Source: an uncultured Verrucomicrobiae bacterium (lineage in GTDB: Bacteria > Verrucomicrobiota > Verrucomicrobiia > Chthoniobacterales > UBA10450). From it: a DNA stretch of 64,000 nt. Below are positions 21,001 through 24,000 of the stretch, in pieces. Position 1 is the first letter of the stretch; each line of letters begins with the position of its first letter. The stretch covers positions 352,001 to 416,000 of the forward strand of contig CAVSDR010000006.1 in assembly GCA_963726745.1 (NCBI GenBank). The letters run 5' to 3'. The position numbers are program-made.

Positions 21001-24000
21001 CACCCCATGCCGTGAAGGTTCGCTTTGGATGAAGAAGATCACCGACCGCATGCTCCTGGGCGGCGGCGTGATTGAGGACCCGCGCACGCTCAAGACCGTA
21101 GCCGACAACATCGCCGGCCGGACGATCTGCGCCTTTGGCGAAGCCTGCGCCTGGCCAACGCAAAGCTTCACCGAAAAATTTGCCGACGAGTTCACCGCCA
21201 AGGCCACGGCCGCGCTTCCGCCCCCGCTCCCACCCGAGCTCACGCCCGGCGAATTGATCCAGGAACAAGGCGCGCAAATCGAAACCGTCGCCATGGCCCA
21301 CGACCCCGGCTGGGACCGCGCCGGCGCGAAAGGGACGGTCTAGGATGAATCAGGAAAGCAGGAAACTAGGAAAAGAATTGCCGGAGCGCGATGTCACTCA
21401 TCGCATCATCGGTGCGGCGATAAAGGTCCATCGCGCCTTGGGTCCTGGCTTTCTGGAGTCAGTCTACGAGGAGGCGCTCGCGGTCGAGTTTGCTTTATCC
21501 GGGATTCAGTTCATTCGGCAAAAGCCAATCGCGCTCTTCTATGCAGACCATCAGATTGGCGAACATCGCCTGGATTTCTTGGTCGAGGGGCGAATCGTGG
21601 TCGAACTCAAGGCCATTCGCGCGCTGGAAGACATCCATTTCGCCATCGGCCGCAGCTATCTGAAAGCGACCAACCTTCAGGATGGCCTGCTCTTAAACTT
21701 TGCTACCGCGCCCCTGACAATTAAGCGTTTCTGCCGCGAAGCAGCACCCGAATCGGCAGAGTTGCGCCCTTAATTTCCTGTTTTCCTGCTTTCCCGATTC
21801 ACCATGCCCGATCCCGCTCCAGTGCAGATGGTCAACGTCCAGGTCGATGGCGTCTGGAAGCAGTTCCCCAAGGGCACGCGGCTGATCGAAGCGTGCGAGC
21901 AGGCCGGCAGCTACGTCCCGCGCTATTGCTATCACAAGAACCTGAGCTCGCCGGGTAATTGCCGGATGTGCCTGATCGAAATGGGCATGCCGAAGATGGG
22001 TCCCGATCGCCAACCGGTCCTGGGCGAAGATGGCCGGCCGGAGATCAATTGGATGCCGCGCCCGCAAATTTCCTGCGCGCAGGATGTGGCCGAGGGGATG
22101 GGCGTGCGCACGACCTCGCCGATGGTGGAAGAATGCCGCCGCGGGGTGATGGAATTTCTCCTGATCAATCACCCGCTCGATTGCCCGATCTGCGACCAGG
22201 CGGGCGAGTGCCGCTTGCAGGAATTCAGCGTCGAATACGGCAACGCCTCCTCGCGTTTCCTCGAGAACAAGGTCAAGAAGCCGAAGAACGTCGAGCTCGG
22301 GCCGCGGGTCACGCTCGATGACGAGCGCTGCATCCTCTGTTCGCGCTGCATCCGTTTTTGCCAGGAAGTCGCGCAGGACGACGTCCTCGGCTTCATCGAT
22401 CGCGGGAGCCACAGCGTGCTCACAGCGCATCCGGGGAAGAAGCTGGAGAATAACTACTCGCTGAACACGGTCGACATCTGCCCGGTGGGCGCGCTCACCT
22501 CCTCCGATTTCCGGTTCAAGATGCGCGTCTGGTTTCTCAAGGAGACCAAGAGCTTTTGCACCAGCTGCGCGACCGGCTGCAACACCGTCATCGGCACGCG
22601 CGAGAATGTCGTCTATCGCCAGACGCCGCGGGAGAACGACGCGGTCAACAAGACCTGGATGTGCGACTACGGGCGGCTCAACTTCGACTACCTGCACTCC
22701 GGCGCGCGCCTGCTTGAACCGAAGATTTTCGACGGCACCAAGCTCATCCCGGCGAACTGGCAGACCACGATCACGCATGCGGTCGCGCAGTTGAAACACT
22801 TCGCGGCGCACGAGATCGCGATCGTCGCCTCCGCGCGCATGACCAACGAGGAAATGTGGCTGACCGCGCGCCTGGCGAAGATTCTCGGCACGCAGCTCCT
22901 CGAGGTGGTCCCGCACACCGGCCCGGGCGACGACATTCTCCTGAGCAGCGATCGCAACCCGAACACGAACGGCGCCCGCCTCCTCGGCCTGACGCGCGAG
23001 CCGGGTGCGCTCCTCCCGCAGATCGCGCAAGGCGGTCGCCACCGGCCAGGTGAAGGCGCTGGTGGTCCTGCAGGAGAATCCGCTCGAGATCGGGATCACG
23101 CCGGAACAACTCTCCAACCTGCCGGCCTTCATCCTCCTGAACTTGCTGGCTAACGAGTCAACCAACTGCGCGACCGCGCTCCTGCCTTCGGCCGGATTCG
23201 CCGAGAAGCGCGGCTCGATGATCAATCGCACCGGCCGCCTCCAGCGGCTCAATCGCGCGATTCTCCCGCCGGGCGAAGCGCGCGACGACTGGGAGATTTT
23301 GCGCGACCTGATCCAGGAGTATTCCGGGCAGAACGGCATCTACACGATCGAGGAAGTCTTCGCGCAAATCGCGCAATCGGTCCCGGAATTCCAGGGACTG
23401 AACCTTGGGAAGATCGGCGACCTCGGCACGCAATTGCTCCAGGTCGCGGAGGAACAGCGGGAGCCCTCGATCGTTTAAGCGATGCCCTGGTTCCTCATCT
23501 TCACTTCGCTGGCCAAGATCATCGGCGTGATCTTTTTGATCATCCTCCCGATGGTCTCCTACACGGTCTACGCCGAGCGGCGGGTGAGCGCGCTCATCCA
23601 GGATCGCGTGGGCCCGAACCGCGTCGGTCCCGTCCGGTCTCTTCCAGCCGATCGCCGACGCGATGAAGTTCATGCTCAAGGAGGACTTCACGCCCGGCGC
23701 ACGTGAACACCTTCTACTACTGGCTCGCGCCCTGCCTGGCGATGGTGCCGGCGATCGCGACCATCGCGGTGGTCCCGTTTGGCAGCACTTTGTTCGGCGT
23801 GCCGATGGTCATCGCGGACATCAACGTCGGCGTGCTCTACGTCTTCGCGATTGCCTCGTTAGGCGTCTACGGGATCGTGATCGCCGGCTGGTCCTCGAAC
23901 TCAAAGTTCCCTTTCCTCGGCGGTGTCCGCTCGACTTCGCAGATGATCTCCTACGAGCTCTCGCTCGGGCTTGCGGTCATCCCGATTTTTCTGCTCGTGG

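What a model noticed while it worked through the whole genome (the two positions that open the first line are those of the whole stretch)
21345..21773. GxxExxY nuclease genes are TIR-flanked cassettes at operon junctions with non-autonomous copies
The three GxxExxY (PD-(D/E)XK) genes (nuoF|nuoG here, gyrB|gyrA at C2:118663, metK|ahcY at C5:210466) are each bracketed by their own inverted repeats and fit between a stop codon and the next gene of a core operon. Gene-less copies of the same repeats lie at many other junctions, and sites are filled or empty in relatives, as for a mobile element with MITE-like derivatives.
Evidence so far: Flanks of the three genes. Inverted-repeat score beats 200 shuffles (p<0.02) at 25 of 29 loci from relatives and this genome. 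Relatives have cassettes at cdsA|dxr, nuoK|nuoL, macB|macB and before gatB; three of these junctions are empty here and the macB junction (C2:353284) keeps a decayed remnant. 23 hits of the nuoF-type arm and 5 of the gyrB-type arm in the genome, nearly all intergenic. Family present in 24 of 31 genomes, 1-6 copies.
(Added by a program. Inside this text positions count along the whole contig: contig position 352,001 is position 1 of the stretch shown here. "Call 12" and the like, gene names such as g00115 and contig names such as C1 are that model's own, and its searches are not shown. The text may have been shortened before it was handed on; [...] marks where a part breaks off. The agent that wrote the report below was given it as the finding of a first reader that could run no searches.)

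Follow-up and report, generated by a model that had tools for sequence, protein, structure and literature searches.

The report
Nuclease cassettes with matching hairpin repeats
A small nuclease gene of unknown function sits between mirror-image repeats wedged between two respiratory-chain genes, gene-less hairpins of the same repeats are scattered through the genome, and the pattern suggests an undescribed enzyme-plus-repeat mobile system, though movement itself has not been shown.

Summary
Confirmed. Window 21345-21773 encodes a GxxExxY protein (TIGR04256/PF13366) with a Cas4/lambda-exonuclease-like fold and intact D77-E87-K89, inside 28-nt inverted arms between the nuoF stop and nuoG start. 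Two more cassettes and about 30 gene-less hairpin loci lie in this Chthoniobacterales genome. Arms beat shuffles at 62 of 76 loci. Arm type tracks protein clade across 24 sites. Gene-less copies of one subtype are enriched in genomes holding the matching gene (p=0.002; two other subtypes p=0.07). The cassette is old, not a jumping IS: dN/dS 0.04-0.11, synonymous sites saturated, best identity between sites 79%. At nuoF|nuoG four alleles (two cassette subtypes, a protease gene, empty) show no phylogenetic signal, implying repeated swapping. Arm mismatches show no G-U bias (48 vs 55), against an RNA-stem/IVS reading. No target duplication outside the termini. Four-helix-bundle cassettes with their own arms use the same junctions, so the nuclease may be a passenger. 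Best reading (0.5): a REPIN/RAYT-like system with a PD-(D/E)XK enzyme. Activity not shown. The scan noted this cassette type earlier in at least eight other genomes.

The parts
19295..21343 (+). nuoE-nuoF fusion gene; its TAG stop (21341-21343) is the left boundary of the insert
   Evidence: Pfam PF01257, PF01512, PF10589; start from own gene caller
21346..21373 (+). Left arm (subtype F1): three 8-9-nt CAGGAA-type words behind a GAATC terminus; also encodes the low-confidence N-terminus of the protein
   Evidence: pLDDT <50 for residues 1-9
21345..21773 (+). GxxExxY / PDDEXK_3 gene, 142 aa; G35-E38-Y41 at 21447-21467; D77, E87, K89 at 21573, 21603, 21609
21774..21801 (-). Right arm, non-coding, ends 2 nt before the nuoG ATG; 90% identical among 9 F1 alleles whose four-fold sites are 37% identical
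21804..23478 (+). nuoG; reading frame shifts near 23005-23153 in this assembly
45515..45585 (.). Gene-less hairpin of the CACGGA arm type, 10 nt after a stop codon and just before queF; no matching gene found in this genome
   Evidence: (z -3.56)
25950..25957 (+). nuoK|nuoL junction, empty (8 nt)
32510..32517 (-). pilT|pilT junction, empty here; three relatives carry a GxxExxY cassette at this site

Best explanation
A repeat-plus-enzyme system that works like REPIN/RAYT but uses a PD-(D/E)XK nuclease. SHOWN: a 430-500-bp unit (inverted arms of 2-4 short words, a sharp terminus, one nuclease gene) fills operon junctions from the upstream stop to the downstream start; each unit type is single-copy and old; gene and non-coding arm are both under purifying selection; gene-less hairpins with the same termini vary greatly in number between species. 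INFERRED: the protein binds the words of its own arm type on DNA and cuts at the terminus; host repair completes insertion. This seeds gene-less hairpins in trans, rarely moves the whole cassette to a new junction, and lets cassettes re-invade or replace alleles at an established junction. Survivors sit at gene boundaries because selection removes the rest and because arm ends can supply stop or start codons. The binding, cutting and joining steps are all untested.
For: Fold and active site: pLDDT 87.9; nearest solved folds Cas4 SSO0001 and lambda-type exonucleases (best E 1e-3, Z 8.2, rmsd 4.5, 104 aligned); D77 60/60, K89 57/60, E87 53/60. dN/dS 0.04-0.11 where computable. Non-coding right arm 90% vs 37% at four-fold sites. 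Both arms change together (32 concerted cells, p=5e-4, mostly F1 vs F2). Arm words track protein similarity over 24 distinct sites (Mantel rho 0.31, p=2e-4). Gene-less F2 arms: median 2.4 vs 0.3 per Mb in 8 carriers vs 20 others, p=0.0025; 0.014 with one clade collapsed; 0.012 without unpublished genomes; cross-type controls null. No strand bias in arm mismatches, 48 G-U vs 55 A-C, which fits DNA-level recognition. One junction is filled by different types in different species, with nesting and tandem arrays. The same terminus with word arrays occurs in Verrucomicrobiota and Acidobacteriota. Single copy per type, own repeat family, unique spacers and purifying selection match RAYT/REPIN features in PMC3337134.
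Against: No activity, excision product or strain-level insertion was seen. Arm-protein covariation is expected from physical linkage alone. Co-occurrence is only p=0.07 for F1 and for the gyrB type, kin are not independent, and there are clear exceptions: G019 has 25 F1 arms and no F gene; G000 has 20 F2 arms but an F1 gene. The cassette could be the template for copies without being the enzyme. Four-helix-bundle genes, not known as nucleases (recalled), have the same layout at 15 of 20 loci and use the same junctions. An armless protease allele is as scattered on the tree as the cassette. 14 of 76 GxxExxY loci lack detectable arms. The nuoF|nuoG clade lacks the Gln of the helix that most members keep. 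All fold matches are weak, and a lone nuclease fold has no known strand-transfer chemistry (recalled).
Confidence: 0.5

Rival explanations
1. Passenger model. Arm-bounded mini-cassettes are moved by an unidentified shared machinery, or swapped by ordinary homologous recombination between conserved flanking genes as in minimal mobile elements. The nuclease has another job (defence, addiction, repair). Gene-less hairpins are remnants or copies templated from cassettes.
For: Three junctions each hold several unrelated cargos. Four-helix-bundle cassettes share the layout. The armless protease allele is equally non-monophyletic (AU p 4e-47). Hairpin families without a matching gene exist here. The uvrD|malQ junction has a gene-less hairpin here where relatives have full cassettes, and macB keeps a remnant.
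Against: F2 copies track the F2 gene while cross-type controls do not. G000 has 30 hairpin loci but no four-helix-bundle gene. The non-coding arm is under strong selection. No PADLOC family matches the window protein. G019 has about 14 gyrB-type sites, several empty in relatives, too many for in-place decay.
Confidence: 0.27
2. Free-standing homing endonuclease. Each site-specific clade cuts the empty or rival allele of its own junction and is copied in by break repair; the arms are operator or self-protection sites, and hairpins arise from ectopic repair.
For: Every junction has its own protein clade. Alleles show no signal on the nuoF/nuoG tree (12 changes vs 13.4 shuffled). Long-term purifying selection at a fixed site. 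Promoter-less intergenic nucleases between conserved genes are known in T4 (PMC2988022, passages). One case (G024) shares its last nuoF codons with the lineage that has the most similar cassette.
Against: No clear co-conversion: excess same-allele identity in the last 45 nt of nuoF is +0.024 for F1 and -0.038 for F2; the pooled signal comes mostly from the empty class. Cassette synonymous divergence is never lower than the host's. The model does not predict dozens of paired hairpins with sharp termini.
Confidence: 0.14
3. RNA-level intervening sequence. The arms pair in the mRNA so the insert is looped out or cut by RNase III, as for ORF-bearing 23S rRNA IVS, keeping the operon coupled.
For: The stem closes almost exactly between the nuoF stop and the nuoG start. 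Left arms start within 15 nt of the upstream stop at 41 of 54 loci, 52 of 54 co-directional (read). PF05635 cargo uses the same junctions.
Against: No excess of G-U over A-C on the transcribed strand: 48 vs 55, 14 vs 13, 14 vs 11 for four-helix-bundle arms. Gene-less copies occur in all gene orientations. The left arm is translated in this subtype. No Rfam match.
Confidence: 0.07

Closest known systems
REPIN / RAYT systems (PMC3337134, parts 1-2 of 3 read)
   Same: Single-copy, mutually divergent short enzyme genes, each tied to its own repeat family; extragenic inverted doublets with unique spacers; tandem arrays; purifying selection without copy-number gain.
   Different: Enzyme is PD-(D/E)XK, not HUH/Y1. 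Arms are arrays of direct words, not palindromic REPs. The gene lies inside one doublet, at many different core junctions, and alleles are swapped between lineages.
Minimal mobile elements of Neisseria (PMC1797815, passages)
   Same: Alternative small loci at one syntenic site between conserved genes.
   Different: Here the cargo has its own conserved termini and dispersed gene-less copies.
Free-standing homing endonucleases of T4 (PMC2988022, passages)
   Same: Promoter-less nuclease genes between conserved genes, site-resident.
   Different: Those are GIY-YIG/HNH with co-conversion tracts; no arms or hairpin families; no clear co-conversion found here.
Restriction-modification genes flanked by inverted repeats (PMC2853133, passages)
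   Same: Nuclease gene between imperfect terminal inverted repeats with no recognised transposase.
   Different: Those show 8-bp target duplications and repeats unique to the unit; here no such duplication, no methylase, and many gene-less copies.
ORF-bearing 23S rRNA intervening sequences, PF05635/TIGR02436 (family match; biology recalled)
   Same: Small ORF inside a long stem; the same protein family occupies these junctions in relatives.
   Different: Protein-coding operons, not rRNA; no G-U bias; different cargo.
IS elements with MITEs (recalled)
   Same: Terminal inverted repeats; gene-less copies share the termini.
   Different: No DDE transposase, no multi-copy autonomous element, no target duplication outside the termini, spacers not clonal.

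Membership tests
GxxExxY protein family (TIGR04256 / PF13366) | Score above curated cut-off, GxxExxY motif | tested here: met
   132 bits vs 35; 125.9 vs 22; G35-E38-Y41
PD-(D/E)XK nuclease superfamily | Core fold and D...ExK residues | tested here: met
   Model; top rows are all of this fold though weak, Z 8.2; D77, E87, K89
PD-(D/E)XK nuclease superfamily | Metal-dependent nuclease activity | not testable with these tools
   needs biochemistry
REPIN / RAYT | HUH/Y1 tyrosine transposase | tested here: not met
   Only PF13366/TIGR04256 match the protein; fold is PD-(D/E)XK
REPIN / RAYT | Extragenic inverted doublets with unique spacers | tested here: met
REPIN / RAYT | Each enzyme single-copy and tied to its own repeat family | tested here: inconclusive
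   Single copy and linkage met; trans co-occurrence p=0.002 for F2, 0.07 for F1 and G, with exceptions
REPIN / RAYT | Each repeat unit is itself a short palindrome | tested here: not met
   Arms are direct arrays of purine-rich words (by inspection)
IS with MITE derivatives | Target-site duplication | tested here: inconclusive
   None of 3 nt or more outside CG in 19 of 20 elements; a CG duplication, or ATGA at overlapping junctions, cannot be excluded
IS with MITE derivatives | Near-identical autonomous copies at several sites | tested here: not met
   Best cross-site identity 79% among 60 proteins
rRNA intervening sequence | Location in an rRNA gene | tested here: not met
   Between nuoF and nuoG; no Rfam match
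rRNA intervening sequence | Stem selected at RNA level (G-U excess) | tested here: not met
   48 vs 55; 14 vs 13
rRNA intervening sequence | RNase III excision from the transcript | not testable with these tools
   no RNA holder listed
Free-standing homing endonuclease | Co-conversion of flanking sequence | tested here: inconclusive
   genomes are about 82% identical, so old tracts may be erased
Free-standing homing endonuclease | Cleavage of the empty allele | not testable with these tools
   needs biochemistry
Minimal mobile element | Alternative cassettes at one site between conserved genes | tested here: met
Minimal mobile element | Exchange by host recombination alone | not testable with these tools
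   the scattered armless protease allele fits it but does not show it

The most novel reading that the evidence does not exclude
GxxExxY proteins are the enzymes of an undescribed class of mobile DNA in which a stand-alone Cas4/lambda-exonuclease-like PD-(D/E)XK nuclease recognises phased word arrays and mobilises hairpin elements without target duplication: a convergent counterpart of REPIN/RAYT. Together with four-helix-bundle cassettes it forms a guild of arm-bounded mini-elements that compete for the stop-start junctions of core operons across phyla.
Probability: 0.4. Interest if true: 0.9.

Novelty: new variant of a known kind. Interest (0 to 1): 0.72.

Why it matters
The family is large (7984 hits among the 8000 candidates scored) and is listed as function unknown (PMC3424549, table row). 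Searches for GxxExxY, PDDEXK_3, PF13366, TIGR04256 and related terms returned no paper linking it to repeats; the library lacks most subscription journals. If the protein is the mobiliser, this is a new enzyme class for mobile DNA with a 142-aa enzyme and 25-40-bp ends, and a second natural case of the RAYT puzzle: how a single-copy enzyme stays under selection while its repeats spread. Matched gene and arm subtypes (F1, F2, G, M) give ready-made specificity controls. It also explains a common class of intergenic repeats in soil Verrucomicrobiota.

Tried and rejected
RNA-stem selection: rejected by the wobble counts. A 2-bp CG target duplication: first read, withdrawn after one search showed that the empty allele fits only with an extra base and a substitution. 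Breakpoints from sister genomes: spacers too diverged or filled by other repeats; one usable pair. Recent transfer of the cassette at nuoF|nuoG: not seen, synonymous divergence is at least that of the host genes. Co-conversion: no clear signal. Four-helix-bundle protein as a required helper: absent from this 94.7% complete genome, though a few heptamer half-arrays are visible by eye. Sequencing runs: no RNA holder listed; contigs of three soil runs were uninformative about this junction; three contigs join the two arms over 16-37 other letters but their loci are unknown. PDB sequence search, PADLOC and Rfam gave nothing for the window element. Genes with stops in 10-30-contig assemblies were not counted as pseudogenes, since nuoG and nuoH here also look frameshifted. 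Five such proteins were left out of the tree.

Full report
OBSERVATION. The ORF at window 21345-21773 is a GxxExxY protein. It lies between a nuoE-nuoF fusion and nuoG, inside 28-nt inverted arms at 21346-21373 and 21774-21801. The genome holds three such genes, each with different arms that begin 0-1 nt after a TAG. Named records with the closest proteins and the same arms are Chthoniobacterales. PF13366 occurs in 30 of 41 genomes. I fetched all but 5 of the 86 match rows and added nuoF|nuoG loci: of 76 distinct loci, 62 beat dinucleotide shuffles at p<0.02 and 57 scored 28 or more. The 14 failures include fragments and genes with no arms. Of 54 strong loci with a called upstream gene, 52 are co-directional with it and 41 start within 15 nt of its stop (read).

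ANATOMY. A unit is 430-500 bp. Each arm has a terminus and two to four words at 8-11-nt spacing (CAGGAA, CAGGAT, CAGATT, CACGGA, CGCAGAG, CGCGAAG and others). The gyrB-type terminus is sharp: CG in 66 of 76 ends and no conservation further out (biased by the pattern). The model (pLDDT 87.9) is a minimal PD-(D/E)XK domain. Its nearest solved folds are Cas4 SSO0001 and lambda-type exonucleases, all weak. D77, K89 and E87 are kept in 60, 57 and 53 of 60 proteins; the nuoF|nuoG clade has lost a Gln that most others keep.

GENE-LESS COPIES. This genome has 33 loci: 3 cassettes and 30 gene-less hairpins or half-hairpins, one probably chance. One lies in the window at 45515-45585 before queF. They occur in all gene orientations. 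Spacers differ from copy to copy. Arms nest, alternate and form tandem arrays, and sometimes supply a gene's stop codon. Counts in 34 genus genomes run 0-27 (G type), 0-31 (F2) and 0-25 (F1). After removing the cassette's own arms, F2 copies are enriched in the 8 genomes with an F2 cassette against 20 others (p=0.0025; 0.014 with one clade collapsed; 0.012 without unpublished genomes). F1 and G give p=0.07; cross-type controls are null. Six genomes with unknown nuoF|nuoG state were left out. Exceptions: G019 (25 F1 arms, protease allele) and G000 (20 F2 arms, F1 gene). Kin are not independent.

OCCUPANCY. nuoF|nuoG, 30 genus loci: 14 cassettes (one seen by its right arm only), 8 with a clan AA protease-like gene without arms (TIGR03698, 50.5 bits, under the 57.35 cut-off), 6 empty with an ATGA overlap, 2 unresolved. 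Three of four other genera of the family carry the F1 cassette at 81% identity; none of 25 loci from other families does. gyrB|gyrA, 30 loci: 8 cassettes, 1 four-helix-bundle cassette, 5 other inserts, 13 empty, 3 without gyrB upstream. metK|ahcY, 20 loci: 3 cassettes, 3 four-helix-bundle cassettes, 1 other, 12 empty, 1 unresolved. On a nuoF/nuoG tree none of the four allele classes can be held as a clade (AU p from 1e-5 to 6e-61; without the unpublished genomes 0.01 to 7e-66), and the 12 changes needed are no fewer than for shuffled labels (13.4). Limits: F1 and F2 were tested after I had seen the tree, many forks are open, and the tree is not genome-wide. Mutually exclusive alleles that are each scattered need lateral replacement, not loss alone (inference).

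AGE AND SELECTION. Each junction has its own protein clade. The best identity between sites is 79%, so whole-cassette moves are rare and old. Within a subtype dN/dS is 0.04-0.11 where computable; most pairs are saturated. The non-coding right arm is 90% identical among nine F1 alleles against 37% at four-fold sites. Arm words follow protein similarity across 24 sites (rho 0.31, p=2e-4), which shows joint travel, not recognition.

DNA OR RNA. The stem closes between the nuoF stop and the nuoG start, which suggested an RNA role. But G-U pairs on the transcribed strand are no commoner than A-C mismatches: 48 vs 55 over 57 loci and 14 vs 13 at nuoF|nuoG. The scoring treated both alike. The arms are therefore best read as sequence motifs on DNA.

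INSERTION SIGNATURE. Of 20 complete gyrB-type elements, 1 has a direct repeat of 3 nt outside the CG ends and none longer. In the one usable sister pair the empty site carries a single GTTCG, like the element's end; three of four alleles lacking the element at a second site have TTCG at the same place. A CG duplication, an end-like target, and an ATGA duplication at overlapping junctions all remain possible.

AGAINST THE NUCLEASE AS MOBILISER. Four-helix-bundle genes occur in 32 of 34 genus genomes; 15 of the 20 loci examined, out of about 150 matches, have inverted arms of 7-nt words. They compete for the same junctions. The armless protease allele is as scattered as the cassettes. A shared unknown machinery or plain recombination may therefore explain part or all of the mobility. 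This genome lacks four-helix-bundle genes, so they are not needed here at present.

MECHANISM AND VERDICT. Best reading, 0.5: a REPIN/RAYT-like pair in which the nuclease recognises its own arm words, seeds gene-less hairpins, and is itself kept at a few junctions and swapped between lineages. Rivals: passenger or minimal-mobile-element model 0.27, homing 0.14, RNA intervening sequence 0.07. It is not a member of RAYT, IS/MITE or IVS families on the features tested. Papers: PMC3337134 parts 1-2 of 3 read; passages of PMC3424549, 10.1101/2021.01.26.428298, PMC1797815, PMC2853133 and PMC2988022; all others as search listings only. No supplements were read; those of the nuclease survey could hold context notes. 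Searches that found no description. Junction names not covered (for example pckA, frr, ridA|pyrE, prpD|prpB, rnhB, nuoK|nuoL, toxin-antitoxin pairs) are recalled from the sequences. Unpublished genomes G001, G008 and G042 are rows; the tree and F2 co-occurrence results hold without G001 and G042; the sister pair with different subtypes (G042, G007) rests on G042. Earlier notes of this scan describe the same cassette type in at least eight other genomes; they were leads, not support. New here: the wobble test, the four-allele swapping, subtype-specific co-occurrence, and selection on the non-coding arm.

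Noticed in passing
L073, L082, L088, L090, L092, L095 (nuoF|nuoG in G019, G021, G043, G018, G017, G049): A clan AA aspartic-protease-like ORF (TIGR03698, below cut-off; motif DSA in place of DTG) is fused in frame to the N-terminus of NuoG in 6 of 8 carriers and separate in 2. It may be a self-releasing leader on an essential complex I subunit; related separate ORFs sit at this junction in two other families.
   Followed up: partly
L409, L426, L427 (metK|ahcY), L163 (gyrB|gyrA), L428-L447: Four-helix-bundle (TIGR02436/PF05635) genes form a parallel set of cassettes with inverted arms of 7-nt words; up to 17 matches per genome, none in G000 or G004.
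   Followed up: partly
window 23005-23153 and 23482-23706; also near 32169-32512: nuoG, nuoH and one pilT paralogue appear frameshifted, as does ahcY on C5; probably long-read assembly errors.
   Followed up: no
G000 C1:1-12776 versus C6:1022417-1035158: Contig C1 begins with a 97% identical copy of the end of C6: assembly overlap or strain variant.
   Followed up: partly
window 30677-31258 (-): Stand-alone HNH endonuclease gene directly after nuoN, overlapping its stop (Pfam HNH_5; weak IscB-domain hit only).
   Followed up: partly
window 19295-21343: nuoE and nuoF are fused in one ORF.
   Followed up: no
G000 C6:2953-3487: A 550-bp nested array of alternating F1 and F2 arms, four units on each side, between convergent genes.
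   Followed up: partly
L193, L200 (G019) and L094 (G023 nuoF|nuoG): Tandem duplications that take an element together with 30-100 nt of both flanks; break repair at the element or assembly artefact.
   Followed up: no
L171, L172, L177, L179, L182 (gyrB|gyrA), L411 (metK|ahcY): The same junctions hold armless small genes, several resembling toxin-antitoxin pairs (recalled, not tested).
   Followed up: no
G000 C2:55840-55960; L220, L221, L241, L398: Other palindromic REP-like repeats of different sequence share these spacers.
   Followed up: no
L282, L292, L348, L371: The gyrB-type terminus with full word arrays also occurs in Acidobacteriota genomes.
   Followed up: no
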